Shown here in pieces: positions 46,301-61,079 of a stretch of 64,000 nt of DNA (position 1 is the first letter of the stretch; each line of letters begins with the position of its first letter). The DNA lies in assembly GCA_964497185.1 (NCBI GenBank), contig CAZCBX010000001.1, positions 5,333 to 69,332 of the forward strand, given 5' to 3'. The notes beneath the pieces are model-generated. The model was given only the letters and a program-made list of their open reading frames with translations, ran no database searches and was not told where the DNA came from. The stretch is from an uncultured Bdellovibrionales bacterium (GTDB lineage: Bacteria; Bdellovibrionota_G; JALEGL01; JAGRMV01). The position numbers were made by a program, and so were the translations under genes.

Positions 46301-46651
46301 ATGAGCCATACGCATTCACTCAAACAAATCTTGGTTCTCATTGATGATGACCCACTGATTCACGCCACATGGTCCATGGTGGCTCAAGCAAAAGGCCATC
46401 AACTTCAATGCTTCACGTGCATTGAAGACTTTAATCAGGCAAGTATCCCCCTGGACGTGCCTGTCTATGTTGATTACCACTTGGGAGAAAAATCGGGCGC
46501 CGACATCATCAAACGCTTGGCTCAAAGAGGGTACGATCATTTATACATCACCACCGGTCGAAAACCCACTGACATCATCAAAGAACCTGAAATGAAAGGA
46601 GTATTTGGCAAAGACTATCCAGAGCAAATTCCTCATTCCAGCTCTTTTTGA
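46301..46651 (+). CDS. Single-domain response regulator (CheY-like receiver only)
   Basis: 116 aa; acidic pocket IDDD; phospho-acceptor in VYVDYHL; conserved Thr (YITTG) and Lys. Confidence 0.75.
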   Translation: MSHTHSLKQILVLIDDDPLIHATWSMVAQAKGHQLQCFTCIEDFNQASIPLDVPVYVDYHLGEKSGADIIKRLAQRGYDHLYITTGRKPTDIIKEPEMKGVFGKDYPEQIPHSSSF

Positions 46652-48453: not shown

Positions 48454-49954
48454 TAAATTTGATATTTTTTAGATTTTTACTGGTGACGATCTTGGATTGA
48501 TTATGAACAATCGGGTAAGCCAAACTCTTTTTAATAAGGTAATGATCAATCGATGAATAAAGCCTAAATTTTTCCTCTATGGTATTGGATTTTTTTAGAT
48601 TTTCAAAATAAGTGTCTAAATCGTCGTGTTTTCCACCGATAAGATATTCATTTGAATCTTTGTAAAAATATTGCAAGGCGGACATGGGGTCTTCATTTTT
48701 AAAATAAAGTTTTTCAATCCAGACTGGAAGTTTTTGATTTTCATACAATTTGAATATTTCTGAAAAGGGAAGTACGACGGTTTCAACGCCGATTTCCAGC
48801 AAAGGCTTCCTAACAATGTCCAAAATGCAGTCCACCTGCTGATCATCAGCGATATGGAAGACCAAATTGTTAAATTTTTTATTTTTCACAACAGTTTGTA
48901 TATCCTCCTTATAACTCTGCGAAGAACCAATTAATCCTTTTGGAATAATCGAACTGGCTACGTTTTGATTCCCGTAGCAAACCTCTCGAATTTTATGAAT
49001 GGGAATGTTTGACAGTAAATATTTTCTGTACTCAACATTTTTTAATTCATCAAAATGATCTGAATTGATGATAATTGTTTCCGTACTGTATTCAGCAATC
49101 TCTTGATACGCAAAGTGGTCCAATTTTTCGATCTCAGAAAAATCGTCAATGCTATAAAAAATAAGATCCGCAACCTCACCAAGCTTGTACTTTTCTATGG
49201 CAACAGACTTTGCCTGCTGTGAAATAACAATGGTTTTGATTTTGGGTGCGTCGCCATAGTAATACTGATTTCTAGAAAGCTTGATCTCACCTTTTTTTGT
49301 TTCCACGACTGCATAAGGACCAGAAGAAACCGGGTATGAAAAATACGCCTCTTTTGCCATGTCACTAAAATTGTGTGGATAAATACAAAACCGCGGAAGG
49401 GAAAGGTTCATCATAAATTGATCGTAAGAATGAATAAGCTCAATATCAAGTGTCCGGTTGTCAACAATGCGGATACCATTTATGAATGGATTTTTTTCTT
49501 CTCTATACTCTTTTGCACCCAAAATTTGTGTTAACACGCTGCTATCCAGAGCATCTTTGTCGACCCATTGATGGAAAGAGAAGGCAATATCTTTGGCATT
49601 GATTTTTTCGCCATTAGAAAACCGAACTTCATCACGAAGATGCAATCGATAAATTTTTTTATCGGTATCAAATTCCCATGATTTCAACAAATCAGGCTTA
49701 ATGCCAAATGAATCATCCACCTTCACCAAATGGCTATAGATTGGATACAGTAGAGCTTTTTGAATAGAATCAGGGACTTTTTGTGGATTGAGGTTGTCAG
49801 GACGGACCGGAACCAAAATATTCCATACTTTGCTTTGGCTTGAAATTCTTTTTTGGTTAATTCTAGATAATTTTCCGAGAGAAAACGAATAAACCAAAAT
49901 TAAAATTCCAGTAAAAATGAGTATGAATGGCGCATATTTTTTCGGCATAATCAT
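48401..49954 (-). CDS. Periplasmic solute-binding protein, family 5 (Opp/Dpp-like), encoded without an ABC permease or ATPase
   Basis: 517 aa with signal/anchor; SBP_bac_5-like sequence; 53-nt overlap with the downstream kinase gene. Confidence 0.68.
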   Translation of the reverse strand: MIMPKKYAPFILIFTGILILVYSFSLGKLSRINQKRISSQSKVWNILVPVRPDNLNPQKVPDSIQKALLYPIYSHLVKVDDSFGIKPDLLKSWEFDTDKKIYRLHLRDEVRFSNGEKINAKDIAFSFHQWVDKDALDSSVLTQILGAKEYREEKNPFINGIRIVDNRTLDIELIHSYDQFMMNLSLPRFCIYPHNFSDMAKEAYFSYPVSSGPYAVVETKKGEIKLSRNQYYYGDAPKIKTIVISQQAKSVAIEKYKLGEVADLIFYSIDDFSEIEKLDHFAYQEIAEYSTETIIINSDHFDELKNVEYRKYLLSNIPIHKIREVCYGNQNVASSIIPKGLIGSSQSYKEDIQTVVKNKKFNNLVFHIADDQQVDCILDIVRKPLLEIGVETVVLPFSEIFKLYENQKLPVWIEKLYFKNEDPMSALQYFYKDSNEYLIGGKHDDLDTYFENLKKSNTIEEKFRLYSSIDHYLIKKSLAYPIVHNQSKIVTSKNLKNIKFIGIKGYLAEWESVYFNE

Positions 49955-49956
49955 AT

Positions 49957-51816
49957 TTATAGTTTGTTTTCAAACATGATTCCAAAATTCATTGATTCTG
50001 GATCATCATAATAATCTTTGAGTAATCCCAAATCAGTTGCGCCTGAGCTTGTGGCGGCACGGTAGCCATATTCATTGTATTTGGATATTTTTAAACCAGA
50101 ATGATACTGATCGATGGAAATCCCAAGCTCATGCCAATAGGCAAAGTTAGGGATTCGTATTCCATAAAAAATAGATTTAATGGCCTCTTCTTTATAAAAG
50201 ATCTTTGCAGCACGAATAATTTCAACTGCTGTCCCTATGGGCGCGTCTGGTAAGACAGAAATGGAAACAATGTATCTAGAATCAAAGTTGGACAAGGTTT
50301 TTTTAGCATAATCAATGCATGCATAATGATGCCACTTATGTTTTTTCATGGCTTGACTTTGATTGCATGGTACTGAATAGATAAAACCCACTGGTTTTCC
50401 TTTATTTCGGCTATAAGCGATCAGAAAATTATCAGGCTTTATTTTTAGTCTTTCTCGAATGGTTTCTTTGCTGGCGGCATGTTTTTTGAGCCATGATCCA
50501 TCTTCAATGTTGGATAAAATATCTACATCGCTTTCAAGAGCTTGAAATACAGCAATTTGATCTTTGGTGCGTGTAGTTGTTTTAGAAATGTATTTTTGAA
50601 CAGAAAAAGAAAAATCATCCAATTTTTGATTGAAAGACGAAATTCTTTGGGCAATCCTGGGTTGCTCATTGGATTCATTGGTCCATAAAACTTCTTTGTT
50701 CCCAACCAGCAAGGTGAGTTGATTTTGCTGCGCTTTTTCTAAGTCCAAATCAAAAACTCTTCCTTCATATGGATTGGTTAAAAACTCCCCCGTCCACCGA
50801 CCGTTTAATTCTATATCACCATCTTTCAAGGGTTTGCCAAGGGCCGTGTGGATAAGAAGCTCACCTATGTTCTCGTTTATTAAAGTTCGATTGATAAGCT
50901 CAGGCATATAGTCACCGGCTATTCGTGCATTGACTTCAATGAGAACAGGCATTTCATTGACCAGCTTAAATTCAATATGTGTCCAAGAGTTTTGTATTTT
51001 TAATGTTGTGTGACATGCCTGCGCGAAATTTTGGATGGCCTCCAAAATTTTCTCATTTTGAATATTGGTTGGAAAAGTATCGGATAATTCATTGGTGCAG
51101 TGAGTTTTTTTATCCGTAATACCAATGACGTGCGTTTTTCCATTGAGCACCATAGACTCTACACTGTACTCGTTGCCATAGATGATCTCTTCAACGACAA
51201 TGTCTTGAGTAATGTTACCATAAATTTTTCGTAAATTCTCCTCATGAAAATCAATGGTTCTTAATTCTTGTATAGCACCAAACAGTTCTTTTTCATTGTT
51301 GATGATTTGAACGCCAAGGCTGGCCATCATTTGTGCAGGTTTGATGATGAATGGAAACGCTAAATTTTTTTCCTTTAATTCATCATAAGTCGGACTTGCA
51401 TCTGAAAAGTAATAAAAATTTGGATTATAATGTGAAAAGGAACTTTGAATTTTCTCTCGCACTAAGCCTTTGTGTCGATAACTTGCTTGCGGGTCTTGAC
51501 TAATTGAAGGCAATTGAAGATCCATTTGCAGTTGATTGCAAAATCCCACGGAGGTCTCAACCCAACACAACGCCCCACAGATTTTCAACTGATATTTGGA
51601 AGCATATTGTTTGGTTTGCTGGGTTAAGTCATGGTGGCTTTGATAATCAAATACAAAGCCTTTAATAGAATATTTTTCTTCCAACCAGGAATAGTCCATA
51701 AAGGCAAGACCCTGAGCGTAAATAAAATGATAATCGGTGTTTTGCTTTAGTTGTTCCACCAAGTAAGCTTTGGAAGATTGAAAACCAGGTTCGACAATGA
51801 TGATTGTTTCTTTCAT
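49957..51816 (-). CDS. ATP-grasp ligase fused to a ~220-aa C-terminal domain of unknown function
   Basis: 619 aa; N-terminal ~400 aa ATP-grasp fold (carboxylate-amine ligase-like); extra C-terminal domain. Confidence 0.6.
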   Translation of the reverse strand: MKETIIIVEPGFQSSKAYLVEQLKQNTDYHFIYAQGLAFMDYSWLEEKYSIKGFVFDYQSHHDLTQQTKQYASKYQLKICGALCWVETSVGFCNQLQMDLQLPSISQDPQASYRHKGLVREKIQSSFSHYNPNFYYFSDASPTYDELKEKNLAFPFIIKPAQMMASLGVQIINNEKELFGAIQELRTIDFHEENLRKIYGNITQDIVVEEIIYGNEYSVESMVLNGKTHVIGITDKKTHCTNELSDTFPTNIQNEKILEAIQNFAQACHTTLKIQNSWTHIEFKLVNEMPVLIEVNARIAGDYMPELINRTLINENIGELLIHTALGKPLKDGDIELNGRWTGEFLTNPYEGRVFDLDLEKAQQNQLTLLVGNKEVLWTNESNEQPRIAQRISSFNQKLDDFSFSVQKYISKTTTRTKDQIAVFQALESDVDILSNIEDGSWLKKHAASKETIRERLKIKPDNFLIAYSRNKGKPVGFIYSVPCNQSQAMKKHKWHHYACIDYAKKTLSNFDSRYIVSISVLPDAPIGTAVEIIRAAKIFYKEEAIKSIFYGIRIPNFAYWHELGISIDQYHSGLKISKYNEYGYRAATSSGATDLGLLKDYYDDPESMNFGIMFENKL

Positions 51817-51827: not shown

Positions 51828-52991
51828 TTAAAAAAAAGAATGGGGCCAGTTTGTAATCATGTTTTCAATAAAATTGGAAAGGGCTGGCATTGTCCAGAAT
51901 CCAATGTGAACTGAAGCAATATAAGGCCCAACCAAACAAATAAAAGCATCAAAAGCCAAAATGCGGTTGATGTAAGGTCCACTTAACTTTTTATAGGAAA
52001 ATAAATAATGGTCAATATTGGGCAGTTGATATGCTTCACAAACACTCCACACCACAAAAAATGGAATCCCAAGCCAGAAATTAGAAATGAGCAGCATGAT
52101 CGTGCAGAAAAAAGCAATTAAGCTAATAACATCATAGCGGCGCAAGGAAAATTCCAAAATTTTTGTCTTTATGGAAATAAGTTGAATCAAAATGACAGCA
52201 ATGGGGTTAAAACCCAATATTATTGCACTATACTTTGCTTCTAAATTGATGGCACTGGCTTTGATGGGTATGGCAGAAATCATAATGGCATAAGGAAGTA
52301 CAAACCCCAAAAAGCGTAAAACATCTTGCAAGACGTTGTGGATCGAAGCAATGCTTTCAACTTCTAAGTGGTTTGATTCCACTTGCTTGGTTTCTTTAGC
52401 AGAATCAAATGTGAATGGCTGATCCAGCCACCGCAAGATTTTCGAGGATATAACGGCGCCAGCGCTCCCTAGTAAAAAAACAACAAGAGTCGGAAAGGAC
52501 GCTTCCAACAGAAAAGCACCAACAAGCGGAAAAACAAGAAAAGCCAGATTGGTGGTGATGCCAAATAAAATGTATAAATTACCTTTTCCCTTGTAAAAAT
52601 TTACAAACTCACCCAGCAGATAACGACTTTTTTTGTAATAAATGGCCTGGGACAAACCAAAAGAAATAAAACTCACAATTTGCAATATCGGGACAGGTAC
52701 GAAAATAAGACAAAGGGCAGCCATTCTGGTGCAAAGCATCAAAGCAATGTGGGTTGTCCATTTTTCTCCGAAAAAGGAAATCAACCACACGCCCCCCACC
52801 TGCAGCCCAGCAAAAAGCCCCATGCCCAAGATGATGGCAGAGCGCAGCTTTGTTTCTTCAATGGGTAGATGCAAAAAAAGCGCATTCACGCCAATGTAGG
52901 CATAAGACCCAAAGAAGAAAAAATTCGAAAGGCCCAGAAGCCCAAGTTTTGAAAACAGTCTATTCATGAATAATGATTGCCTATAGAGCAT
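51828..52991 (-). CDS. Polytopic membrane protein (10-12 TM), possibly a transporter
   Basis: Hydrophobic helices throughout; start adjusted to ATG (MLYRQSL). Confidence 0.5.
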   Translation of the reverse strand: MLYRQSLFMNRLFSKLGLLGLSNFFFFGSYAYIGVNALFLHLPIEETKLRSAIILGMGLFAGLQVGGVWLISFFGEKWTTHIALMLCTRMAALCLIFVPVPILQIVSFISFGLSQAIYYKKSRYLLGEFVNFYKGKGNLYILFGITTNLAFLVFPLVGAFLLEASFPTLVVFLLGSAGAVISSKILRWLDQPFTFDSAKETKQVESNHLEVESIASIHNVLQDVLRFLGFVLPYAIMISAIPIKASAINLEAKYSAIILGFNPIAVILIQLISIKTKILEFSLRRYDVISLIAFFCTIMLLISNFWLGIPFFVVWSVCEAYQLPNIDHYLFSYKKLSGPYINRILAFDAFICLVGPYIASVHIGFWTMPALSNFIENMITNWPHSFF

Positions 52992-53061: not shown

Positions 53062-53076
53062 GTTCGGTATCCGAAC
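53062..53076. promoter_or_regulatory. Palindromic operator candidate GTTCGGTATCCGAAC (second copy)
   Basis: Extended palindrome ATGTTCGG-TAT-CCGAACAT in the divergent intergenic region. Confidence 0.4.
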
Positions 53077-53141
53077 ATAATGTGCAGACCGCTGAGATAT
53101 ACGTTCGTCAATTGATGCCAAACAAGAGTATAAAAAGATCA

Positions 53142-53345
53142 ATGAGCCATACGCATTCACCCAAACAAATCCTAGCCCTCATTGATGATGACCCACTGAT
53201 TCACGCCACATGGTCCATGGTGGCTCAAGCAAAAGGCCATCAACTTCAATGCTTCTATTCGCTAGACAAGTTTTGCACTGCATATGTCCTCATTTATACA
53301 TATATTTTTGTTGGCTATCATTTAAATGACAGAAAAGGCACCTAA
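53142..53345 (+). pseudogene. Truncated duplicate of the single-domain response regulator 5' end
   Basis: First 38 codons (MSHTHSPKQILALIDDDPLIHATWSMVAQAKGHQLQCF) near-identical to 46301-46414 (~77 bp identical at DNA level), then unrelated sequence and early stop. Confidence 0.6.
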
Positions 53346-53744
53346 GTTATAAAAAAGTTGGCCAGAAGCGGTTTTTCTTCGCTCTTTATTACAACTGGAC
53401 ATGACAAAAGCACCATTCATTCTTTTTCCCCAGCGAGAGCTGTTTTTGGAAAAAATTATCCTTAGTTCATATGAGTGAATATGTTGTCAGCCCCAAGATA
53501 AATATTTCAGTTGCTATCACTAAATCGAACAAATGTGATTGGAATCCAAACAAATCATTAATTTCTTTCCCATGGGTTTTGGCGGGTTTTCAGTCATCTT
53601 TATCTTTATTTTTTTGATTAACAGAACCTATCTAAAATCTTATAGCGTTTGGAAATAGAACGAACTTGTTCTGTTTCCAAATTATTTTTGTAGAAATAAT
53701 GCATCCTTTCCAGGATACGGTACGGTTTTTTTTACTTTAACCGT

Positions 53745-53760
53745 TGGCATACTCATTGCT
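53745..53760 (+). promoter_or_regulatory. Candidate sigma-54 (-24/-12) promoter for the biosynthetic operon
   Basis: TGGCAT-actca-TTGCT with GG-N10-GC spacing; imperfect palindrome TTTGGAAATAGAAC-gaac-TTGTTCTGTTTCCAAA at 53650-53684 about 90 bp upstream could be an enhancer-binding-protein site. Confidence 0.4.
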
Positions 53761-53772: not shown

Positions 53773-55059
53773 ATGAAAATAAAAAATGTTGTACAAAGAA
53801 ACTGGCAAAAAGAGAAAATTAAAAAATCATCATTTCACCAAAATCTTTCCTTTAGCTCTGGCATTAACAACAAAAATGTCACTTCAAGAAAAGAGAAATG
53901 GATCGAACTTGCAGATGGAACCAGCGCCACAGAATTCATGTCTTGCTCATACCTGGGATTAGAAACTGACAACCGCCTTAAGAATGCCGCACTAAGTGCT
54001 ATCGATCAATATGGTGTGCAACTTGCTGTAGCTAGAACCAGAATCAAACCAATCATTTGTGAAGAGCTTGAAGAAAATCTACAAACCATTTTTCAAGGCC
54101 CTACGGTTACGTTTAGTACTGTAGGTCTAACTCACCTTGCCATCTTCCCTCTTCTAGGGGCTGGTGTTTTACCGTCGTATCCAGTGAGTGTCAATGGGCC
54201 GCTTTGGATCATGGATAAGACATCTCATGCTTCCATTCAGATTTTACGGGGTATCATGCAACAAAATGGTGAAGTGATTCGGGTATCATTCTCTGACCAT
54301 CAGGCACTTGCAGATGCATTTCAGTATGCACATAAAAGCCAAAGAACGCCTATCTCCATATCTGATGGTGTTGGTTCTATGGGAGGAGATGCTCCGGTTC
54401 GACTTCTAGTAGAACTTTCTTACAAATACAATGGATATGCATACATTGACGATGCCCATGGCACGTCAATTATGGGTAAATACGGAGGGGGATATGTCAT
54501 TCACGAGCTAAATGACACTCTCGATCCAAGAGTGATACTGGTCTCATCACTTTCGAAGGCATTTGGAGCCACTGGAGGCTGTGTAACGGTCCGAAGTCCT
54601 AACGATAAGGACACCATTCAACGATTTGGAACACCATATATCTTTGGCGGGCCTGTTTCACTTCCCGGTATCGCTGCAGCCCTTGCATCATCTGAAATTC
54701 ATATACAAGATGAAATCTATACGCTGCAAAATAAACTACAAGAAAACATAAAGCACTTTGATACCTTGGCTGGCAATAAGACAATTAACTTCAAAAAACG
54801 CATTCCCATTCGTGGTCTTGTTGTGGGGGATGAGGTGAAGTGCCTTAGCGTTTCAAAACAAATGTGGGAAAGAGGTTTTGGAACGACCGCTGCTATGTAC
54901 CCGACGGTACAAAAAGGCGAAGCCATGCTCCGCGTAGCGCTTTCCGTCCTCCATACAAAAAAACAAATAGAAAACCTCATTTATACGTTTCAGCATGCAA
55001 GACAAGGTTTGCATATTGTCACAGACACTCTCAAGGGATCCTCCAATGTACACGTATAA
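53773..55059 (+). CDS. PLP-dependent alpha-oxoamine synthase (BioF/Kbl/SPT/CqsA/LqsA family)
   Basis: 428 aa; N-terminal SYLGLETD motif; PLP-lysine motif SLSKAFGATGG; no bioA/B/D genes nearby. Confidence 0.75.
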   Translation: MKIKNVVQRNWQKEKIKKSSFHQNLSFSSGINNKNVTSRKEKWIELADGTSATEFMSCSYLGLETDNRLKNAALSAIDQYGVQLAVARTRIKPIICEELEENLQTIFQGPTVTFSTVGLTHLAIFPLLGAGVLPSYPVSVNGPLWIMDKTSHASIQILRGIMQQNGEVIRVSFSDHQALADAFQYAHKSQRTPISISDGVGSMGGDAPVRLLVELSYKYNGYAYIDDAHGTSIMGKYGGGYVIHELNDTLDPRVILVSSLSKAFGATGGCVTVRSPNDKDTIQRFGTPYIFGGPVSLPGIAAALASSEIHIQDEIYTLQNKLQENIKHFDTLAGNKTINFKKRIPIRGLVVGDEVKCLSVSKQMWERGFGTTAAMYPTVQKGEAMLRVALSVLHTKKQIENLIYTFQHARQGLHIVTDTLKGSSNVHV

Positions 55060-55909
55060 ATGTAAGACCGGATCCTCATCAATCCTACCTAATGGTAATG
55101 ACGTGCGGGCAAAATTATCAAAACATGGAGCTGTACTCTTTCGGGGGTACCGAATCTGCGTGAAAAATTTTGATCAGTATACAAATCAATTTGGTAACGA
55201 ACACTTGATTCATGGATCTATAAGGAAAAAAATTAATGCCAAAGATACCATTCAAGATGTCACAAAAGGCCAGGGAAAAGTATTGCCCCATATAGAAATG
55301 GGAAGAATGCCTACAAAACCCAATCAAGTTTGGTTCTTGAGCGAAAAGCCGGCTCTTATCGGGGGCGAAAGTACACTCGTTGATGGTATCAAGGTTGCTG
55401 AAAGCCTACCTGATCATGTGCGTAATTTCTTTAGGGATAATCCTATTTCTTTTCAAGCAAAAGTTTCTAAATTCTCTTGGCAGAGACTTTGGGGTATCCA
55501 AACACTAAGCGAATTAAAAGATCGTATGGATATGCTTTCCGTAAATCCTAACATTTCATTTGAGATGAATAAAGAAGATGAATCATTTATTGGAAGATAC
55601 AGCACCAGCGCATTTATCACTCAACCTGATGGAAAATTAGCTTTTAGTAATAGTATCGTAGGACCTTATGAAGGCCCTAGTGGAGGAGAATGCAGAATGC
55701 TAAATGGCAATCCAATTCCATCATCAATAATCGAAACCATCTTGAATTGCTACCAATACAATATGAACACAATTACCATGGATCCCGGAGATTTTATGGT
55801 CGTTAACAATCATCGCTTTATGCATGGCAGAGAAGCGTTTCGAGTAAAACCAGGTGATACAAGAAAAATGTATGCAAAACTTATCAAAGGAGAATTTCAT
55901 GCAATCTAG
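55046..55909 (+). CDS. Fe(II)/2-oxoglutarate-dependent dioxygenase (TauD/TfdA / clavaminate-synthase-like)
   Basis: HxE-type motif (PHIEMG) and distal HRFMHGR; start adjusted to MYTYKCK, 14-nt overlap with the upstream gene. Confidence 0.58.
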   Translation: MYTYKCKTGSSSILPNGNDVRAKLSKHGAVLFRGYRICVKNFDQYTNQFGNEHLIHGSIRKKINAKDTIQDVTKGQGKVLPHIEMGRMPTKPNQVWFLSEKPALIGGESTLVDGIKVAESLPDHVRNFFRDNPISFQAKVSKFSWQRLWGIQTLSELKDRMDMLSVNPNISFEMNKEDESFIGRYSTSAFITQPDGKLAFSNSIVGPYEGPSGGECRMLNGNPIPSSIIETILNCYQYNMNTITMDPGDFMVVNNHRFMHGREAFRVKPGDTRKMYAKLIKGEFHAI

Positions 55910-56951
55910 TCTAAAAGTGAATCAAATGATTCAACACGATACAAAACCTACACTTCAAGACCGCTCATTGGTTCAAATTATTACTTCTTATAGAAGCGCC
56001 AGCGCTTTGTATGCTTTTGTGAAGCTCGACCTCCCTACATTCATTCACAACAATTCTTCACCAACACTGAAGAAAGCTGCTTTTTACTCTGGTGTTCCCA
56101 TCGAAAAACTATCTCGACTCATGGATGTCATTGCCATGGAACAAATCGTAGCGATCGAAAATTCTTGTTTACACCTAACAACCAAAGGCAAACAATTGGC
56201 TACAGATAAGAGCCTAAGAGACTGGATTTTATGCGAGCTTAGCCCTACCTATTGGAATGTCTGGGCCAACCTAACAGACGCCCTCCAACAAAACATAGAC
56301 TGTGCTTTCGACTCTACACACAACCAGTCCTTTTTTCCCTACCTAAAAGAGAATGAGAATTTTCATAAACTATTTCAAAGCGTCATGACAAATTACTCGA
56401 TTCGAGCAGGGGCAGAAGTCGCGAAAGCAATCAACTTTGAGGATGATAAAAAAATCGTAGATGTGGGTGGAGGCCACGGCCACATGCTTTTTAGCATCCT
56501 CAAAGCCAATCAACACCTTCATGGATGCGTATTCGAGCTGCATGAGAATTATAAAGGATTTCAGATTGAAAAACAAAAAACCGGGCTTCTTGATCAAAGA
56601 GCAACTTTCCAATCCGGCAATTTCATGCATGAAGCTATTCCAAGGTGTGACACAATCATCATGAAAAATATTATTCATGATTGGGACGATGAAAATGCCG
56701 TTCATATACTTTCAGCATGTAGACAATCCCTGAAAAACAACGGCCGTATCATCCTGGCGGAAATTTTGAAATCTGAGGATCCACTTGACTCTTTAGGTAA
56801 AAGTTTGGATCTGCTTATGATGCTGCTATTCAATGGGAAAGAGCGAAATTATTCGCAATATCAATCTTTGGCTGAACAATCAGGCCTAACCATCAGCAAC
56901 ATCTACCCAACTAGAGGACCGCTTTCGTTGATTGAACTGAGAAAGGCATGA
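55899..56951 (+). CDS. Class I SAM-dependent O-methyltransferase (dimerisation domain + Rossmann fold)
   Basis: SAM motif VDVGGGHGH; start MQSSLKV preceded by AAAGGAGAA; 11-nt overlap with the dioxygenase gene. Confidence 0.75.
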   Translation: MQSSLKVNQMIQHDTKPTLQDRSLVQIITSYRSASALYAFVKLDLPTFIHNNSSPTLKKAAFYSGVPIEKLSRLMDVIAMEQIVAIENSCLHLTTKGKQLATDKSLRDWILCELSPTYWNVWANLTDALQQNIDCAFDSTHNQSFFPYLKENENFHKLFQSVMTNYSIRAGAEVAKAINFEDDKKIVDVGGGHGHMLFSILKANQHLHGCVFELHENYKGFQIEKQKTGLLDQRATFQSGNFMHEAIPRCDTIIMKNIIHDWDDENAVHILSACRQSLKNNGRIILAEILKSEDPLDSLGKSLDLLMMLLFNGKERNYSQYQSLAEQSGLTISNIYPTRGPLSLIELRKA

Positions 56952-57910
56952 ATATGCGTTGCTATTGGGTAGTTTGTTACAAAGATTTTGACGAGCAAAC
57001 GAGAAAAAAAATTGAAAACAAGTACCACAAGATGTTTCAAGAAGCATCAGAAAAGCACGGAATATCATTTTCGTTCATCGATAGTGAGGATCTCTCCATA
57101 ACATGTGATCATAAAACGAATATATGCTTGGGTAATCAGAATATTGCAACCGAAGATACAGCGTTTTTGATTTCAAATTTTAGTATGGACCCAAAAAGAA
57201 AGCGATACTTAGATCAGCTTTATTATGCTTTCCTTGAAAGCGACAGTACACTCCTTAACAAAACATTCTATCATGGGGCGCACCTTGAGAAAAATAAGTT
57301 TTCTATGACGCAACTCATAACTCAGCTTGGAATACCTAATATACCTACACACTTCATGAAACCCTCAGGTGATCTAAAACACGCAGAATTATTTTATCAG
57401 AACCACTGCATTGATCATGGCGCAATGCTAAAACCCAATGAAATGGGCATGGGCATTGGTATTTCTCATTGCAAATCCTGGCAAGATACCAAAGATACCT
57501 GGCAGCGTGATGGAAAAGACGTTGATTATATTTTGCAGCCCTATATTCCGCATATAGGAGATCTAAGATTATACCTTTACAACCACAGTGTTGTTGAGGG
57601 TCAATTTCGCATTGTTCCGAATGGACGACATCAAGCCAATATCTCTCAGGGTGCAATGAGCAAAGATGTTGAGTTCCCACAAGCATTACGAACTTTAGCA
57701 AAAAATATAAGTAGACACGTCGGTGCTGAGCAGTGCTGCATTGATTGGCTCATCACAGAAAAATCATTTTTCTTTAACGAAATCACAACAACACTAGGTG
57801 GGTTCACTGGGCTAAAGGAGAGCAAGCAAAAAGTGCTTGCAGACAGACTATTTAATTACATCCAATACCGTATAACATCGAACAAAGAAAAGAGAAACGT
57901 ATGGCCCTAA
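56948..57910 (+). CDS. ATP-grasp family ligase (RimK/GshB-like)
   Basis: 320 aa; ATP-grasp C-terminal half (DYILQPYIPHIGDLRLYLY...EITTTLGGFTGL). Confidence 0.6.
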   Translation: MNMRCYWVVCYKDFDEQTRKKIENKYHKMFQEASEKHGISFSFIDSEDLSITCDHKTNICLGNQNIATEDTAFLISNFSMDPKRKRYLDQLYYAFLESDSTLLNKTFYHGAHLEKNKFSMTQLITQLGIPNIPTHFMKPSGDLKHAELFYQNHCIDHGAMLKPNEMGMGIGISHCKSWQDTKDTWQRDGKDVDYILQPYIPHIGDLRLYLYNHSVVEGQFRIVPNGRHQANISQGAMSKDVEFPQALRTLAKNISRHVGAEQCCIDWLITEKSFFFNEITTTLGGFTGLKESKQKVLADRLFNYIQYRITSNKEKRNVWP

Positions 57911-59208
57911 CCTTACTTGAAAATTCTTACCTCACGTCCATCAAAGACATCTATGCACTTCAACATCAAAATGCACTCGCAACAATCCAAAGGCTTTCAA
58001 AGATTGATGCATATAAAGACAAATTAATTGGAATTGATCAAAATAATTGGAAAAATGATTGGTTCAAGGTTCAACAAATGAAAGCTCTGGACGTTGAAGC
58101 AACGCAAAAACAAGATGAAGCAAGAACAGCAGGCCCAGTCCTTCGGTCAGGTGGAACTAGCAGTCTTCGTAAGGTTATTCATCATTCTTGGAGATTTAAT
58201 GACCAAGTTACTCACCTTGGTGTGCGTTCATTTCAGGCAATTACAAACAAGACGAATTTTCGCATTGCCAATTGTTATAGCAGTGGTGATATGTTGGGGG
58301 CTTATTTTTTTGCAGAATCTATCGCTAGAGAGTTACGTTTACCCTACTACCCGATTGGAAGCTCGGTTCCTCTTGAAGAGACCCTCAATATAATCTCAGA
58401 CCACAAGATTGATATACTTATGGCAACGCCATCATACGCACAAAGCCTGTATCATCATGCCTCTATCAGAAATCAAAAAGAAAAATTATCATCTATATCG
58501 ATCATTCTGTATTTAGGAGAGATGTTTCCAAAAACATTTTATGAAAAAATTTGTAGCCTTCACCCGAATGTTTGCATCCATAATTTATCCTATACAACGA
58601 CCGAAACGGGACCGATTGGATATCAATGCACCTCATTGCCAAATGATTGTTTTCACATTCATGAGGACGCGATTTGGGTTGAAGTTATTGAGCCAATCAC
58701 AAAGCAGCCTATTATGGATGTGCCAGGCAATATTATCGTAACCCCCTTTTCAAGCACAGGTATCCCACTTCTTCGATATGACACAGGTGATAAAGGAATA
58801 TTGCGGTCGGTATCATGTCAATGTGGGCACAAAACAAGAGTGATTCAACTATTGGGAAGAAGTCAACAATCCATTAAAATTTGCGGTGCCATTATACAAA
58901 AGAGTTATATTATCGACTCTATTAGAAGTATATGTAAAGAAGCTCTCGTTAATGAAACCAATATTCAAGTCCAACAAATTCAGAACCATGATGGCATTCA
59001 AGTCAAAATATTGCTCAATAAGAAAAATTGGACGTGTATTTCAGCCAGACGAATTGAGGATAGACTGAGACAAGATCATCACTTCTCGTTTATTGTATCT
59101 CACCCTGCTTGTAGGCTCTTTGGTGTTTCGTCGGTTCCCTTCACTGAGTTTGCAATGACAAAAAGCGGAAAAACACCGTTTTTTATTACGATCCATGAGA
59201 AGCAATAA
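57901..59208 (+). CDS. Adenylate-forming enzyme of the PaaK / coenzyme F390 synthetase-like family
   Basis: P-loop-like RSGGTSSLRKV where PaaK has SSGTTGKP; 435 aa. Confidence 0.6.
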   Translation: MALTLLENSYLTSIKDIYALQHQNALATIQRLSKIDAYKDKLIGIDQNNWKNDWFKVQQMKALDVEATQKQDEARTAGPVLRSGGTSSLRKVIHHSWRFNDQVTHLGVRSFQAITNKTNFRIANCYSSGDMLGAYFFAESIARELRLPYYPIGSSVPLEETLNIISDHKIDILMATPSYAQSLYHHASIRNQKEKLSSISIILYLGEMFPKTFYEKICSLHPNVCIHNLSYTTTETGPIGYQCTSLPNDCFHIHEDAIWVEVIEPITKQPIMDVPGNIIVTPFSSTGIPLLRYDTGDKGILRSVSCQCGHKTRVIQLLGRSQQSIKICGAIIQKSYIIDSIRSICKEALVNETNIQVQQIQNHDGIQVKILLNKKNWTCISARRIEDRLRQDHHFSFIVSHPACRLFGVSSVPFTEFAMTKSGKTPFFITIHEKQ

Positions 59209-60414
59209 ATGAAAAACAACAATCCAAACCTAATTCCTCGCTGCACGATAACGTATGTTCTACTGACAAATATAGATTTTTTGATCATATTGCCTCTCAT
59301 TCCAGTGCTCGTAGGGGCTGAACATGGAAATGTAGCCACGAAAGTTGCATCAATTTTGTCGATGCGCATCTTTTTTTCAATGGGGTCTTCACTTTTTTCG
59401 TCGATCCTATTCAAAAAAACAAGCTATGGGACACTCCTTGCTATTGCGGCTATTTCTCGAGCCATTGCGTTTTTCATGCTGTTTCGATTCGATCTAACCA
59501 GTTTGTACTTATTTGCAGGCATTGCTGGTTCTGCCACAGGTCTTATTCGCCCAAGTGTTCGGGCTCTTTTGGCAGACACAACATCAGGAACGACAAAAAC
59601 ACTGTATTTTCAGTTTCTTTTCATTGCTATGAACGCTGCATTTGTCATTGGCCCTACAATATCTCGTTGGATCATGAAAAAAGACATCCTTGCAACAATA
59701 ATTGCTTACTTGATCACCATCGAGATCGCGCTTGCTCTAATGATGATCATGGTTGGTCGCCATGTAAAACCTCAGCATAATGAAACCAGCCAAGACAAAC
59801 CTTCGCTCCTGTCTATTGAAAGATACAGGCATTTTTTTTCTCCATTGCTCCAAATAGCTCTTTTCTATGAATTTCTTGCCTTTTTTGGCATTGGTTTCAT
59901 GATCGCTTGTTTTGTTTTATATAATAAAATCATTCCTGAACTTGGTGATTTTCGGCATTTTCTCCTAAGTTTTGAAGGATTTGCCATGATTGTAATGCAG
60001 TTGGTACTGCTACCCTTATTTACAAAGTTACGGGGAACAATTAAAATGCTACTTGTCAGCATATGTTTTGGAACAGGTGTGTACCTTGCATTTACACCTC
60101 CGTTATGGGTCGTTATTGTTGGATTAGTTGTTTTTGCTCTGGCAGAGTCTATTCTCTTGCCGCATATACAATTACTCATGTCAAAGGCATCAACCTCAGC
60201 CAACAGAAGACAAATCTATGCACTTGCAACATGCATCGCTGCATTGGGTGAAATTTGTGGTAACTTTTGCGCTGGCTTTATAATTGATGCACCATACTTT
60301 TCTCACCAACCCGCTACCAATGGACAAATTGTTGGGGTGCTGTTTCTTTTTGCCTTTGTTGCTTTGACCTTACATTATAGGCAACAAGAAAATATCATGA
60401 ATGATTCCATATAG
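59209..60414 (+). CDS. MFS transporter (probable product exporter)
   Basis: 401 aa, 12 predicted TM helices; start codon abuts the upstream gene's stop. Confidence 0.72.
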   Translation: MKNNNPNLIPRCTITYVLLTNIDFLIILPLIPVLVGAEHGNVATKVASILSMRIFFSMGSSLFSSILFKKTSYGTLLAIAAISRAIAFFMLFRFDLTSLYLFAGIAGSATGLIRPSVRALLADTTSGTTKTLYFQFLFIAMNAAFVIGPTISRWIMKKDILATIIAYLITIEIALALMMIMVGRHVKPQHNETSQDKPSLLSIERYRHFFSPLLQIALFYEFLAFFGIGFMIACFVLYNKIIPELGDFRHFLLSFEGFAMIVMQLVLLPLFTKLRGTIKMLLVSICFGTGVYLAFTPPLWVVIVGLVVFALAESILLPHIQLLMSKASTSANRRQIYALATCIAALGEICGNFCAGFIIDAPYFSHQPATNGQIVGVLFLFAFVALTLHYRQQENIMNDSI

Positions 60415-60782: not shown

Positions 60783-61079
60783 TTGGCCAAGACCCAAGAT
60801 GTTGCATTCAAGACGGCCAAACATCGGGTGGCGGCCAAAGGCGCCATTGATCTCAAAGAACAAACCTACCAAAATTTTGAAATTGGATTTTTGGATGCCC
60901 AAGGCTGTGCCAAGCTGGTGCAAACCATCGAAGGCCCGCTGACCCAACCCTCGTTTCGCATCACGCGATCATTGATCAAAACCATCACCGCTCCGGTGAC
61001 CAACATGTCCGACCGCGTAGAAAACTTGCTGACCGGGGGCTGTGACGTTTTTTATCAGGGCACCGTTTCGCACCCCTAA
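60783..61079 (+). repeat. Direct repeat B: orphan AsmA 3' fragment (right island junction)
   Basis: Encodes ...LAKTQDVAFKTAKHRVAAKGAIDL...CDVFYQGTVSHP, near-identical to the C-terminus of the full AsmA gene but with no upstream coding context. Confidence 0.8.

What the first reader, a model, noticed from the sequence alone, without database searches (positions are those of the whole stretch)
53773..60414. Seven-gene biosynthetic operon built around a CqsA/LqsA-family alpha-oxoamine synthase
The genes are tightly packed and overlapping on the plus strand: alpha-oxoamine synthase, Fe/2OG dioxygenase, O-methyltransferase, ATP-grasp ligase, PaaK-like adenylating enzyme and MFS exporter. Alpha-oxoamine synthases condense an amino acid with an acyl-thioester; CqsA and LqsA use this chemistry to make alpha-hydroxyketone autoinducers (CAI-1, LAI-1). 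The other enzymes would hydroxylate, O-methylate and amide-ligate such a scaffold, and the MFS pump would export it. A second ATP-grasp ligase is encoded in the divergent operon. The operon sits beside a kinase/binding-protein/sigma-54 sensory system. Together this suggests a new modified aminoketone or pseudopeptide signal, or possibly an antimetabolite with its own sensor.
Basis: partly seen in the sequence, partly recalled or inferred. Interest (0 to 1): 0.85.

Follow-up and report, generated by a model that had tools for sequence, protein, structure and literature searches.

The report
Aminoketone gene cluster with its own sensor
A six-gene operon for an unknown small exported molecule, built around an amino-acid/acyl-CoA condensing enzyme, sits on a 16.5-kb acquired island beside a conserved "make, export, bind, sense" gene module and a sigma-54 regulator that probably switches it on.

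Summary
The operon is real, but it has six genes, not seven: alpha-oxoamine synthase (AOS), TauD-type Fe/2OG oxygenase, phenol-type O-methyltransferase, RimK-like ATP-grasp ligase, PaaK-like adenylating enzyme and an MFS pump, all overlapping or abutting.

The AOS is not CqsA/LqsA-like. It belongs to the uncharacterised NCBIfam subfamily NF005697 (PRK07505). Its closest solved relative is Alb29, and CqsA is the most distant AOS hit.

The operon is one member of a recurring, uncharacterised cassette: AOS + RimK-like + MFS + PaaK-like, with or without TauD/OMT. Other members are in Saccharospirillum, Photorhabdus, Bartonella, a Stappiaceae MAG and metagenome contigs.

New findings:
- The whole 44.5-60.8 kb region is a low-GC island bounded by a 293-nt direct repeat.
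- The only consensus sigma-54 promoter in 64 kb lies 13 nt upstream of the AOS gene, and a sigma-54 activator is on the island.
- The divergent operon (MFS, L-amino-acid-ligase/GNAT fusion, family-5 binding protein, hybrid kinase) is a conserved module of its own. It occurs in at least four unrelated contigs, once with MFS fused to the ligase, and never beside an AOS elsewhere.

Best reading: a signalling module that controls an aminoketone-pseudopeptide cluster. The product and the signalling role are inferred, not shown.

The parts
44271..44563 (+). Left copy of the 293-nt direct repeat. It is the functional 3' end of the asmA-like gene 43152-44567 and marks the left island boundary.
   Evidence: the repeat finder family D1, 92% identity to 60783-61075. 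Alignment: near-identical over the first ~225 nt of the repeat, divergent over roughly the last 70.
44583..45956 (-). NtrC-type sigma-54 activator: receiver + AAA+ Sigma54_activat + HTH_8, with the GAFTGA motif present.
   Evidence: Pfam Sigma54_activat 7.1e-70, Response_reg 2.7e-26, HTH_8 1.6e-10. GAFTGA is read in the translation.
45940..46137 (-). 65-aa ORF made only of a HisKA (DHp) domain with an H-box. It overlaps the activator's start codon. It may be a phosphotransfer protein or a kinase remnant.
   Evidence: HisKA 30.3 bits against a cutoff of 26.9. JGI calls a 60-aa version.
46146..46161 (-). Weak sigma-54-like site TGGCAT-N5-GTGCT just upstream of the HisKA-only/activator pair.
   Evidence: 2 mismatches to TGGCAC-N5-TTGCW. 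Sites of this quality are common (52 in the window), so this is suggestive only.
46301..46651 (+). REC116: a stand-alone atypical receiver domain. The acidic pocket DDD, a candidate phospho-Asp in VYVDYH, and TT and K residues are visible.
   Evidence: Translation. Weak Response_reg match, E 0.072. 34% identical over 97 aa to an extra C-terminal domain of the kinase in L097.
46678..48453 (-). Hybrid sensor histidine kinase: two TM helices flanking a ~120-aa periplasmic domain, then HisKA, HATPase_c and a C-terminal receiver-like domain. Its start overlaps the end of the binding-protein gene.
   Evidence: Pfam. Hydropathy. 30% identity over 582 aa to the kinase of the L093 module.
48401..49954 (-). 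Family-5 (DppA/OppA/NikA-type) solute-binding protein with an N-terminal signal/anchor. No ABC permease or ATPase genes are on the island.
   Evidence: SBP_bac_5 4.3e-39. NikA/Opp4A/CntA-type NCBIfam hits, all below their cutoffs. TM segment 6-30.
49957..51816 (-). 619-aa fusion of an L-amino-acid-ligase-type ATP-grasp domain and a C-terminal GNAT-fold domain.
   Evidence: ATP-grasp_4 2e-24. PDB BL00235 4.3e-16, plus BacD. C-terminal domain model pLDDT 88.7; best fold matches are the SxtA/CurA/GphF GNAT-like domains at E 1e-11 to 1e-9. About 27 full-length family representatives.
51828..52967 (-). Multi-TM permease, probably a divergent MFS. It is the first gene of the divergent operon.
   Evidence: About 8-10 hydrophobic segments. 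JGI names it 'MFS family permease'. Its only homologue, P0285 (39% identity), has a sub-threshold MFS_1 match of 26.2 bits. The same position is held by clear MFS_1 proteins in L093, L097 and L098.
53062..53480 (+). Degraded duplicate (pseudogene) of REC116, including about 80 nt of its upstream region.
   Evidence: Repeat D2: 46221-46414 against 53062-53255, 84% identity. The alignment continues with frameshifts to about 53480.
53647..53682 (.). 16-bp-stem palindrome (TGGAAATAGAAC / GTTCTGTTTCCA) followed by a T run, about 80-110 nt upstream of the -12 element. It is either the terminator of the former receiver gene or an activator binding site.
   Evidence: The half-site occurs exactly only here in the window.
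53745..53760 (+). Consensus sigma-54 (-24/-12) promoter TGGCAT-N5-TTGCT, ending 13 nt before the AOS ATG.
   Evidence: It is the only match to TGGCAY-N5-TTGCW in 64 kb on either strand; 0.53 matches are expected per window. It is absent upstream of the AOS in all related loci.
53773..55059 (+). Alpha-oxoamine synthase, subfamily NF005697/PRK07505. PLP-Lys262, His229, Asp226, His152 and Arg387 are invariant across 30 relatives.
55046..55909 (+). TauD/TfdA-family Fe(II)/2-oxoglutarate oxygenase. The H99-x-E101...H277 triad and R290 are invariant among the 4 aligned orthologues (numbering of the 54995 ORF).
55872..56951 (+). Class I SAM O-methyltransferase of the phenol/small-molecule type (Methyltransf_2 + dimerisation domain).
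   Evidence: Best PDB matches are the Photorhabdus Plu4890-4895 methyltransferases, CalO6 and MmcR, at E 1e-42 to 1e-31.
56948..57910 (+). Divergent RimK/MptN-type ATP-grasp amide ligase.
   Evidence: RimK 5.6e-10. rimK_fam 5.2e-15 and MptN 7.9e-11, both below their cutoffs. No PDB sequence hit.
57901..59208 (+). PaaK-like adenylate-forming enzyme (aryl/arylacetyl-CoA ligase type).
59209..60414 (+). MFS transporter, presumed exporter.
   Evidence: MFS_1 2.3e-17.
60783..61075 (+). Right copy of the 293-nt direct repeat. It is an orphan asmA 3' fragment inside ORF 60765-61079 and marks the right island boundary.

Best explanation
The locus is a composite 16.5-kb horizontally acquired chromosomal island with two functional units.

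Unit 1 is the six-gene plus-strand operon. It is a small biosynthetic cassette that makes and exports a modified alpha-aminoketone amide (a pseudopeptide-like small molecule).
- The PaaK-like enzyme activates a carboxylic acid, probably an aryl or arylacetyl acid, to its CoA thioester.
- The PRK07505-type AOS condenses that thioester with an amino acid, with loss of CO2.
- The RimK-like ATP-grasp ligase caps the product through an amide bond.
- The TauD oxygenase hydroxylates it.
- The phenol-type O-methyltransferase methylates it.
- The MFS pump exports it.

Unit 2 is the divergent operon: MFS permease, L-amino-acid-ligase/GNAT fusion, orphan periplasmic family-5 binding protein and hybrid histidine kinase. 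It is a self-contained 'make, export, bind, sense' module with logic analogous to agrBDCA or LuxM/LuxPQ.
- The ligase/GNAT enzyme makes a small, possibly N-acylated, peptide-like compound.
- The compound is exported and bound outside the cell by the binding protein.
- The binding protein signals to the kinase.

Phosphate is then proposed to pass by a relay (kinase receiver and/or REC116, perhaps the HisKA-only protein) to the NtrC-type activator. The activator fires the sigma-54 promoter directly in front of the AOS operon.

Shown: gene content, family assignments, island boundaries, promoter sequence, conservation of both units elsewhere, and the fusions.
Inferred: substrates, order of steps, direction of transport, the identity of the ligand, the phosphorelay, and that the activator acts on this promoter.
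For: Enzyme assignments.

Cassette recurrence:
- AOS-TauD-RimK-MFS-PaaK in Saccharospirillum (L010).
- AOS-OMT-RimK-MFS-PaaK in Photorhabdus khanii (L060) and in contig L090.
- AOS-RimK-MFS-PaaK in Bartonella vinsonii (L029); L048 and L054 showed AOS, RimK-like and PaaK-like matches only.
- OMT-AOS-MFS-PaaK-RimK in a Stappiaceae MAG (L023).
- The closest AOS (59% identity, L089) is followed by TauD then OMT, as here.
- 34 of 80 species-level AOS loci have a PaaK-like gene within 7 kb. This supports PaaK-like as the acyl-CoA supplier, in the manner of BioW-BioF.

Island:
- GC is 34-41% between about 46 and 60.5 kb, against about 45-49% in the immediately adjacent windows and 43-52% elsewhere in the window.
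- A 293-nt direct repeat of the asmA 3' end bounds the region.
- The island separates the biotin carboxylase from the carboxyltransferase of a propionyl-CoA carboxylase neighbourhood.

Regulation:
- The window has a single consensus -24/-12 promoter, 13 nt upstream of the AOS ATG.
- The activator with GAFTGA is on the same island.

Module:
- The same gene order MFS-ligase/GNAT-SBP5-HK occurs in L093, and in L097 with an extra MBL-fold gene between ligase and SBP. It occurs partially in L096 and L098. Ligase identity is only about 30-32%.
- MFS and ligase are fused in P0143.
- A REC116-like domain is fused to the kinase in L097.
- The SBP and kinase genes overlap in the window, L093 and L097.
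- No ABC permease genes are on the island.
- The kinase has a periplasmic domain between two TM helices.
Against: - No product, transcript or binding data exist.
- The sigma-54 site would leave a leader of only about 2 nt before the AOS ATG, which is unusual. One such site per 64 kb is roughly what chance gives (0.53 expected); only its position is improbable.
- rpoN was not seen, because the window is too small to tell.
- The GNAT loop of the window's ligase (APIGTA) departs from the R-x-x-G-x-G/A motif kept by relatives, so that domain may be impaired.
- The permease of the window's module is not detectably homologous to the MFS of the other modules.
- Only one module contig (L093) is long enough to show that no AOS cassette lies upstream.
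- The ligase/GNAT enzyme could instead act in the AOS pathway, and the aminoketone could be the ligand. Family-5 binding proteins are known to accept 5-aminolevulinate, an AOS product (own knowledge).
Confidence: 0.5

Rival explanations
1. One pathway with self-sensing of the aminoketone. Both ATP-grasp ligases and the AOS operon build a single pseudopeptide. One of the MFS pumps exports it. The family-5 binding protein and kinase sense that same product and, through the sigma-54 activator, auto-induce the operon.
For: All the genes travel together on one repeat-bounded island. The sigma-54 promoter is in front of the AOS gene. The two operons are divergent from one 770-bp region. Aminoketone acids are dipeptide isosteres, and DppA-type proteins transport 5-aminolevulinate (own knowledge). 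The GNAT-like domain resembles the SxtA/CurA loading-decarboxylase domains, which feed an AOS in SxtA.
Against: The module MFS-ligase/GNAT-SBP5-HK recurs without an AOS cassette at the equivalent position in L093. None of 80 species-level AOS loci, nor the related metagenome contigs, carries the ligase/GNAT, SBP5 or activator genes. The REC116 duplication flanking the module suggests the two units were joined secondarily.
Confidence: 0.2
2. An antibiotic or antimetabolite cluster under environmental control. The AOS operon makes a toxic amino-acid or dipeptide mimic, and its MFS pump gives self-resistance. The binding protein and kinase sense an external cue (peptides, nickel, an opine-like compound from other organisms), not a self-made signal. 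The ligase/GNAT + MFS pair is a second regulated dipeptide-antibiotic unit of the bacilysin or dapdiamide type.
For: The ligase domain is closest to BL00235, BacD and DdaF, which are dipeptide-antibiotic ligases. AOS+MFS alone is the only annotated non-mobilisation cargo of a 6.7-kb mobilizable E. coli plasmid, and the AOS, usually with the adjoining MFS gene, is on 35 enterobacterial plasmids; this pattern is typical of toxin or competition traits. Cassettes sit next to plasmid partition genes in L023, and next to a ParA-like ATPase gene in L091.
Against: Conserved co-transcription of synthase, exporter, binding protein and kinase, with overlapping genes and an MFS-ligase fusion, is the hallmark of autoinduction circuits rather than of sensors for foreign cues. 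No immunity or target-replacement gene is evident.
Confidence: 0.2
3. A metallophore or opine-type system. The products chelate a metal, and the NikA/CntA-like binding protein senses the metal complex.
For: The best NCBIfam matches of the binding protein include NikA (7.6e-28) and the staphylopine-binding CntA (1.8e-21).
Against: All those scores are far below the family cutoffs. No ABC importer, TonB receptor or nicotianamine-synthase-like or opine-dehydrogenase genes were found. O-methylation and an aryl-CoA ligase do not fit known opine metallophores.
Confidence: 0.05

Closest known systems
Alb29 (albogrisin pathway AOS, Streptomyces albogriseolus; PDB 8XHA/8XHK/8I7U/8XHD)
   Same: It is the closest solved relative by sequence (E 3.4e-40 over residues 46-403). 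It is a secondary-metabolism AOS that condenses an amino acid (L-Glu) with acyl-CoAs (PMC11906848).
   Different: The relationship is only distant. The window enzyme belongs to NF005697/PRK07505, whose members are uncharacterised. I did not compare the gene neighbourhood with the albogrisin cluster, and the amino-acid substrate here is unknown.
CqsA/CqsS and LqsA/LqsS alpha-hydroxyketone quorum sensing
   Same: An AOS-family enzyme lies near a sensor kinase, and the idea is a small diffusible ketone signal.
   Different: The CqsA model scores 47.5 bits against a cutoff of 428, and CqsA is the weakest AOS hit in the PDB. CqsS/LqsS are multi-TM kinases that bind the signal directly and need no binding protein (own knowledge). 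Here the kinase has a periplasmic domain and a coupled family-5 binding protein. It belongs to a module that occurs without any AOS.
Ketomemicin (ktmA-F) / arphamenine-type pseudopeptide clusters
   Same: They combine an AOS (KtmB) with an ATP-grasp peptide ligase to make a ketomethylene pseudopeptide (own knowledge; KtmB is cited in PMC11906848).
   Different: No aldolase, dehydratase or reductase genes for a benzylmalonyl-CoA extender, and no amidinotransferase, are present. Here there are instead PaaK-like, TauD, OMT and MFS genes. The ATP-grasp is RimK-like, not PGM1-like.
BioW-BioF (pimeloyl-CoA synthetase + 8-amino-7-oxononanoate synthase)
   Same: The two-enzyme logic matches: a dedicated acid-CoA ligase feeds an AOS (PMC9544090). 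The AOS + PaaK-like pair recurs in 34 of 80 loci.
   Different: The enzyme is not BioF (162 bits against 426). The ligase is PaaK-type, not BioW. There is no biotin context.
Binding-protein-dependent sensor kinases (LuxP-LuxQ, TorT-TorS; review PMC8050422) and agrBDCA-type autoinduction operons
   Same: An orphan periplasmic binding protein is translationally coupled to a kinase with a periplasmic domain. The synthase, exporter and receptor are co-transcribed.
   Different: The binding protein is family 5 (peptide/nickel/opine type). The presumed signal synthase is an ATP-grasp/GNAT fusion, which is not a known autoinducer synthase type. The output goes through a sigma-54 activator. None of this has been tested experimentally.
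SxtA / CurA / GphF GNAT-like loading-decarboxylase domains
   Same: They are the best structural matches to the C-terminal domain of the 619-aa ligase (Foldseek E 1.4e-11 to 4e-9, TM about 0.65-0.69). SxtA also contains an AOS domain.
   Different: Sequence identity is 16-20%. Ordinary N-acetyltransferases match nearly as well. No ACP or PKS is present, and the catalytic residues were not checked.

Membership tests
CqsA/LqsA alpha-hydroxyketone autoinducer synthases | Sequence matches the family model (NCBIfam NF005526) at or above its cutoff | tested here: not met
   47.5 bits against a cutoff of 428, and only residues 147-413 align. PDB CqsA hits have E about 2e-4.
CqsA/LqsA alpha-hydroxyketone autoinducer synthases | Adjacent cognate CqsS/LqsS-type multi-TM sensor kinase | tested here: not met
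   The neighbouring kinase has 2 TM helices with a periplasmic domain, and it is coupled to an SBP_bac_5 protein.
Alpha-oxoamine synthase superfamily (PLP fold type I, BioF/Kbl/SPT/ALAS) | Full-length homology, with the PLP-binding Lys and the catalytic His/Asp/Arg conserved | tested here: met
   Hits to all AOS models. K262, H229, D226, H152 and R387 are invariant in a 30-sequence alignment.
NCBIfam NF005697 (PRK07505) AOS subfamily | Score above the curated cutoff over the full length | tested here: met
   422.9 bits against 342; residues 6-410 align to profile positions 4-399 of 405.
BioF (8-amino-7-oxononanoate synthase, biotin pathway) | TIGR00858 score above cutoff, and bioA/bioD/bioB context | tested here: not met
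   162.4 bits against 426.45. No bio genes were found among the window ORFs that were scanned. The rest of the genome is not visible.
Ketomemicin-type pseudopeptide cluster | AOS plus ATP-grasp ligase, together with the aldolase/dehydratase/reductase set for the alkylmalonyl-CoA and an amidinotransferase | tested here: not met
   Only the AOS and an ATP-grasp (RimK-like) are present. The other four gene types are absent from 44.5-60.8 kb.
Recurrent AOS-RimK-MFS-PaaK cassette (uncharacterised; defined here) | PRK07505-type AOS adjacent to RimK-like ATP-grasp, MFS and PaaK-like genes on one strand, with or without TauD/OMT | tested here: met
   The window has all four plus both tailoring genes. 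Relatives are L010, L023, L029, L060 and L090, with partial cases L048, L054, L089 and L091.
NtrC-type sigma-54-dependent regulation | Activator with receiver + AAA+ (GAFTGA) + HTH domains, and a -24 GG / -12 GC promoter at the target | tested here: met
   Domains. GAFTGA. TGGCAT-N5-TTGCT at 53745-53760.
NtrC-type sigma-54-dependent regulation | rpoN present, and the activator binds upstream of this promoter | not testable with these tools
   rpoN was not seen in the window ORFs that were scanned. The palindrome at 53647-53682 is only a candidate binding site.
Binding-protein-dependent sensor kinase | Orphan periplasmic binding protein encoded next to, and co-translated with, a kinase that has a periplasmic domain; no cognate ABC permease | tested here: met
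   The genes overlap in the window, L093 and L097. No BPD_transp or ABC_tran genes are on the island. TM topology. Physical interaction was not tested.
L-amino-acid ligases (BacD/YwfE, BL00235, DdaF) | ATP-grasp_4-type domain homologous to characterised Lal enzymes | tested here: inconclusive
   BL00235 4.3e-16 and BacD 1.9e-5. The DdaF and BacD NCBIfam scores (57 and 29 bits) are far below the cutoffs of 840 and 850. This shows the same fold and clade but not an equivalog.
GNAT superfamily (C-terminal domain of the 619-aa ligase) | GNAT fold, and the acyl-CoA-binding motif R/Q-x-x-G-x-G/A | tested here: inconclusive
   The fold requirement is met (pLDDT 88.7; 378 PDB matches at E<=1e-3, with the listed top matches being GNAT-fold proteins). 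The motif is kept in relatives (APRGTGT) but reads APIGTAV in the window protein.

The most novel reading that the evidence does not exclude
The four-gene module (MFS exporter, ATP-grasp L-amino-acid-ligase/GNAT fusion, orphan family-5 periplasmic binding protein, hybrid histidine kinase with REC116) is a previously unrecognised class of bacterial cell-cell or autocrine signalling system. In it, an ATP-grasp enzyme is the autoinducer synthase for a small, possibly N-acylated, peptide-like signal. In this genome the module has been recruited, through a phosphorelay and a sigma-54 activator, to control an equally uncharacterised aminoketone-pseudopeptide cluster.
Probability: 0.25. Interest if true: 0.85.

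Novelty: new variant of a known kind. Interest (0 to 1): 0.62.

Why it matters
- AOS-centred small-molecule clusters outside biotin, haem, sphingolipid and CAI-1 chemistry are few. This one defines a recurring cassette with no characterised member that I could find. The cassette is present in insect- and mammal-associated genera (Photorhabdus, Bartonella), and near plasmid partition genes in a Stappiaceae MAG.
- The same AOS subfamily, paired only with an MFS pump, is the only annotated non-mobilisation cargo of a small mobilizable E. coli plasmid and is carried on 35 enterobacterial plasmids. Knowing its chemistry could therefore have wider relevance.
- The conserved exporter/ligase/binding-protein/kinase module gives a concrete, testable candidate for a new kind of self-produced signal and receptor. 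The natural wiring to a single sigma-54 promoter provides a ready reporter for testing it.

Tried and rejected
- Literature searches gave no relevant paper: oxoamine + ATP-grasp; AONS + RimK + phenylacetate-CoA ligase + MFS; PRK07505; ATP-grasp + autoinducer + kinase + binding protein. The library is open-access only, so absence is weak evidence.
- The P. fluorescens SgaAB sphingolipid AOS and the Bacteroides LgsGA3 AOS sit in different contexts (PKS-linked, TetR-linked). I rejected them as matches.
- The metagenome scan for the ligase used uninformative N-terminal patterns. It returned only L095, an unrelated ATP-grasp next to an aaRS-like gene and an LD-carboxypeptidase.
- The full-length structure model of the 619-aa ligase was poor (pLDDT 39.6) and was not used. 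Only the C-terminal domain model was used.
- hhalign found no homology between the window permease and the MFS of the other modules. I therefore call it a probable divergent MFS on weaker grounds.
- Rfam found no RNA family anywhere in the window.
- No plasmid in PLSDB carries the ligase/GNAT fusion or a close PaaK-like relative.
- A catabolic reading (Kbl-like thiolysis plus TauD/PaaK catabolism) was considered and rejected, because the O-methyltransferase and ATP-grasp ligase are anabolic.
- No integrase or transposase ORF was recognised between the island repeats.

Full report
**The observation**

The plus strand between 53773 and 60414 carries six ORFs, not seven. Each has a significant family match.
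- AOS, a PLP fold-type-I enzyme (53773-55059).
- A TauD/TfdA Fe(II)/2-oxoglutarate oxygenase (ORF from 54995). Alignment with three orthologues places the likely start at 55046, overlapping the AOS stop.
- A Methyltransf_2 O-methyltransferase (55854/55872-56951).
- A RimK-like ATP-grasp ligase (56948-57910).
- A PaaK-like adenylate-forming enzyme (57901-59208).
- An MFS transporter (59209-60414).

Junctions overlap by 4-38 nt or abut, so this is one translationally coupled operon.

Catalytic residues look intact. The AOS has PLP-Lys262, His229, Asp226, His152 and Arg387 invariant over 30 relatives. The oxygenase has an HxE...H triad. The adenylating enzyme has its P-loop, YTTTETG, YDTGD and C-terminal GK motifs.

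**What the AOS is**

It scores 422.9 bits on NCBIfam NF005697 (PRK07505, 'hypothetical protein' subfamily; cutoff 342). It scores far below cutoff on every named AOS family:

| Family | Score (bits) | Cutoff (bits) |
|---|---|---|
| bioF | 162 | 426 |
| Kbl | 147 | 460 |
| serine palmitoyltransferase | 107 | 500 |
| ALA synthase | 97 | 339 |
| CqsA/LqsA-type autoinducer synthase | 47.5 | 428 |

Among solved structures the best match is Alb29 (8XHA and related entries, E 3.4e-40). CqsA comes near the bottom of the list (E about 2e-4). Alb29 is the L-glutamate-using AOS of the albogrisin pathway (PMC11906848). The 'CqsA/LqsA-family' label is therefore wrong, while 'not BioF' is right.

**The operon belongs to a recurring cassette**

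Homologues at 45-59% identity are numerous and phylogenetically scattered. In 80 species-level genome loci, I ran tblastn with all the island proteins:
- 34 loci have a PaaK-like gene within 7 kb of the AOS. These include about 20 Pseudomonas species and several actinomycetes.
- 6 loci have both RimK-like and PaaK-like genes.
- 1 adds TauD and 2 add OMT.

Confirmed arrangements are:
- AOS-TauD-RimK-MFS-PaaK in Saccharospirillum impatiens (L010).
- AOS(frameshifted)-OMT-RimK-MFS-PaaK in Photorhabdus khanii (L060).
- AOS-OMT-RimK-MFS-PaaK in contig L090.
- AOS-RimK-MFS-PaaK in Bartonella vinsonii (L029). Two further Bartonella loci (L048, L054) show AOS, RimK-like and PaaK-like matches; their middle gene was not examined.
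- OMT-AOS-MFS-PaaK-RimK next to plasmid partition genes in a Stappiaceae MAG (L023).
- AOS-TauD-ATP-grasp downstream of a ParA-like ATPase gene (L091).

The closest AOS (59%, L089) is followed by TauD and then OMT, exactly as in the window, before its contig ends.

The non-AOS proteins are only 22-41% identical across cassettes, so the synteny is old. The window is the only case seen with both tailoring enzymes and a complete cassette. I found no characterised member. The literature library is open-access only, and no MIBiG comparison was possible.

**Likely chemistry (inferred)**

The recurrent AOS + PaaK-like pair mirrors BioW-BioF logic (PMC9544090): a dedicated ligase makes the acyl-CoA that the AOS condenses with an amino acid.

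The adenylating enzyme is closest to phenylacetate-CoA ligases and to the aryl-acid ligases AjiA1 and a PaaK-like ligase (6SIW). The O-methyltransferase is closest to the Photorhabdus Plu4890-4895 methyltransferases, CalO6 and MmcR, which I recall as phenol O-methyltransferases. Together these point to an aromatic, phenol-bearing moiety, either in the acyl part or from tyrosine.

RimK/MptN-type ligases form amide bonds between a carboxylate and an amino-acid amine. Capping the reactive alpha-aminoketone amine or a side-chain carboxylate is the obvious role. The TauD enzyme would hydroxylate and the MFS would export. The order of steps and all substrates are unknown.

**The surroundings change the picture**

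(a) *Island.* GC falls to 34-41% between about 46 and 60.5 kb. The immediately adjacent windows are about 45-49%, and the rest of the window ranges from 43 to 52%.

A 293-nt direct repeat (92% identity) consists of the 3' end of the asmA-like gene (44271-44563) and an orphan copy just after the MFS gene (60783-61075). The 16.5 kb between the repeats holds every gene of interest, including the activator. This segment separates a biotin carboxylase (40331-41827) from a carboxyltransferase (61134-62690).

The window starts at recF-dnaN-dnaA and yidC-mnmE-mnmG. The island is therefore chromosomal, about 40-57 kb from dnaA. No integrase was recognised.

The same island occurs in several metagenome samples. 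The organism was not among the 185,579 species-representative genomes as far as the scan could tell.

(b) *Promoter.* The pattern TGGCAY-N5-TTGCW occurs once in the 64 kb on either strand, at 53745-53760, 13 nt before the AOS ATG. Expectation is 0.53 per window, so its position rather than its existence is what counts.

None of the related AOS loci has such a site upstream. The island's activator has receiver, AAA+ (GAFTGA) and HTH_8 domains.

A 16-bp-stem palindrome lies 80-110 nt upstream of the -12 element. It could be the activator's binding site, or the terminator of a defunct upstream gene.

Caveat: the predicted leader is only about 2 nt.

A weaker -24/-12-like site lies just upstream of the activator's own small operon (46146-46161).

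(c) *A separate, conserved signalling module.* The divergent operon encodes four proteins:
- A multi-TM permease. JGI calls it 'MFS family permease', and its one homologue has a sub-threshold MFS_1 match.
- A 619-aa protein whose N-terminal half is an L-amino-acid-ligase-type ATP-grasp (BL00235 4.3e-16, BacD, DdaF).
- A family-5 solute-binding protein with a signal/anchor.
- A kinase with a ~120-aa periplasmic domain between two TM helices and a C-terminal receiver-like domain.

The C-terminal 220 residues of the 619-aa protein model confidently (pLDDT 88.7) as a GNAT fold. It is closest to the GNAT-like decarboxylase/loading domains of SxtA, CurA and GphF.

The ligase/GNAT fusion is rare: about 27 full-length cluster representatives among 1.84 billion. 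Every context that could be retrieved shows the same neighbours in the same order:
- MFS-ligase/GNAT-SBP_bac_5-HK in L093.
- [partial gene]-ligase/GNAT-SBP5-[kinase start] in L096.
- MFS-ligase/GNAT in L098.
- In L097, an MFS::ligase/GNAT fusion protein of 1098 aa (P0143), then an MBL-fold hydrolase, SBP5 and a 724-aa kinase.

Identities to the window are about 30-32% for the ligase, 17-30% for the binding protein and 27-30% for the kinase.

The L097 kinase carries a second C-terminal domain that is 34% identical to the window's stand-alone receiver REC116 (46301-46651). REC116 therefore belongs to the same pathway.

The binding-protein and kinase genes overlap in the window, L093 and L097. 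No ABC permease or ATPase genes accompany them.

L093 has no AOS cassette at the equivalent upstream position. Conversely, none of the AOS loci has the module.

Exporter, small-molecule synthase, extracellular binding protein and kinase thus form an evolutionary unit of their own. The two gene fusions are Rosetta-stone support for functional coupling.

(d) *Traces of assembly.* A degraded copy of REC116, including about 80 nt of its upstream region, lies between the two divergent operons (53062-53480). It is 84% identical to the intact copy over the first 194 nt and then frameshifted.

The module is therefore flanked by direct repeats of the receiver gene. This suggests that it and the AOS cassette were joined by recombination.

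A 65-aa ORF made only of a HisKA/DHp domain with an H-box overlaps the activator's start codon (45940-46137; HisKA 30.3 bits against a cutoff of 26.9). With a hybrid kinase and no Hpt protein on the island, it is a candidate phosphotransfer intermediate. It could equally be a remnant.

**Mechanism I consider most likely (confidence about 0.5 overall)**

The ligase/GNAT enzyme makes a small peptide-like compound. The adjacent permease exports it, and the orphan family-5 protein binds it and signals to the kinase. This is 'make, export, bind, sense' logic, like agrBDCA or LuxPQ systems (binding-protein-dependent kinases are reviewed in PMC8050422).

Phosphate then reaches the NtrC-type activator by a relay. 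The activator opens the sigma-54 promoter of the AOS operon, whose product is a hydroxylated, O-methylated, amide-capped aminoketone that the MFS pump exports.

Gene content, families, boundaries, the promoter sequence, synteny and the fusions are shown. The ligand, the direction of transport, the relay and the promoter-activator pairing are inferred.

**Rivals**

- *Single pathway (0.2).* The aminoketone itself is the sensed ligand. It is plausible because aminoketone acids mimic dipeptides, but the independent distribution of the two units weakens it.
- *Antibiotic/antimetabolite units under environmental sensing (0.2).* This is supported by the Lal-type ligase and by the plasmid-borne AOS+MFS pairs.
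- *Metallophore reading (0.05).*

**Verdict**

The family label is wrong. The 'own sensor' idea is strengthened, but the sensor belongs primarily with the second ligase.

The cluster is a new variant of a known kind (AOS-based small-molecule biosynthesis) within an uncharacterised cassette family. The associated module could be a new type of signalling system, but nothing here demonstrates signalling.

Noticed in passing
L099 (E. coli plasmid CP057426.1, 6676 bp); hits H1-H25: A 6.7-kb mobilizable E. coli plasmid has only four annotated genes: two mobilisation genes, an MFS transporter and a PRK07505-type AOS (48% identical to the window's). The AOS is on 35 Klebsiella/E. coli/Enterobacter plasmids, and an MFS gene overlaps the match in most of the 25 listed rows. 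A two-gene AOS+MFS unit as sole plasmid cargo suggests a selectable trait of unknown nature.
   Followed up: partly
L005/L006 (Klebsiella oxytoca complex) and L024 (Pseudomonas): In Klebsiella the AOS sits with a haem-oxygenase-like di-iron enzyme (PF14518), EamA, MFS and an amino-acid permease. In L024, the one Pseudomonas locus examined in detail, it sits with PF14518, a DUF3419 (BtaA-like) protein and a PaaK-like ligase. About 20 Pseudomonas species show the AOS + PaaK-like pair. This is a different recurring context for the same AOS subfamily.
   Followed up: partly
window 45940-46137 (-): A 65-aa ORF consisting only of a HisKA/DHp domain with an H-box is translationally coupled to the sigma-54 activator. 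It could be a minimal phosphotransfer protein or a kinase remnant.
   Followed up: partly
window 46221-46651 and 53062-53480: A stand-alone atypical receiver gene (REC116) and a frameshifted duplicate of it, including its upstream region, flank the MFS-ligase-SBP-HK module as direct repeats.
   Followed up: yes
L097 128-3424 (protein P0143, 1098 aa) and L097 5745-7919: There is a natural fusion of the MFS permease to the ligase/GNAT enzyme. The kinase carries an additional REC116-like domain. An MBL-fold hydrolase gene is inserted between the ligase and the binding protein.
   Followed up: partly
Proteins P0185, P0187, P0188, P0190, P0192, P0209, P0217, P0229, P0230: The GNAT-like C-terminal domain of the ligase also exists as stand-alone 220-255-aa proteins. 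The two that were scanned (P0185, P0187) have no Pfam match. All keep the APRGTG loop that is degenerate (APIGTA) in the window protein.
   Followed up: partly
L060 10016-11238 (Photorhabdus khanii NC19): The AOS gene of the Photorhabdus cassette is split into two overlapping ORFs. This is a frameshift, meaning either a pseudogene or an assembly error.
   Followed up: no
window 26-3936 and 5468-12689: recF, dnaN and dnaA lie on the minus strand, followed by yidC, jag/khpB, mnmE and mnmG on the plus strand. The window therefore starts at the chromosomal replication-origin region, and the 3937-5467 gap is the likely oriC.
   Followed up: no
window 37933-41827 and 61134-62690; L001 20545-21287: Methylmalonyl-CoA mutase, a biotin carboxyl carrier, a biotin carboxylase and a carboxyltransferase flank the island. 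A multihaem cytochrome gene lies further downstream, according to the JGI calls for the same contig.
   Followed up: no
window 36001-38000 (GC 0.431); ORF 36642-37808 (-): A second, small low-GC patch holds an AAA_14/DUF4143 ATPase gene, a type often found on mobile or defence-related DNA.
   Followed up: no
L095 2132-5338: An unrelated stand-alone Lal-type ATP-grasp (427 aa) sits between a class-II aminoacyl-tRNA-synthetase-like gene and an LD-carboxypeptidase gene. This is a different small ligase cluster.
   Followed up: no
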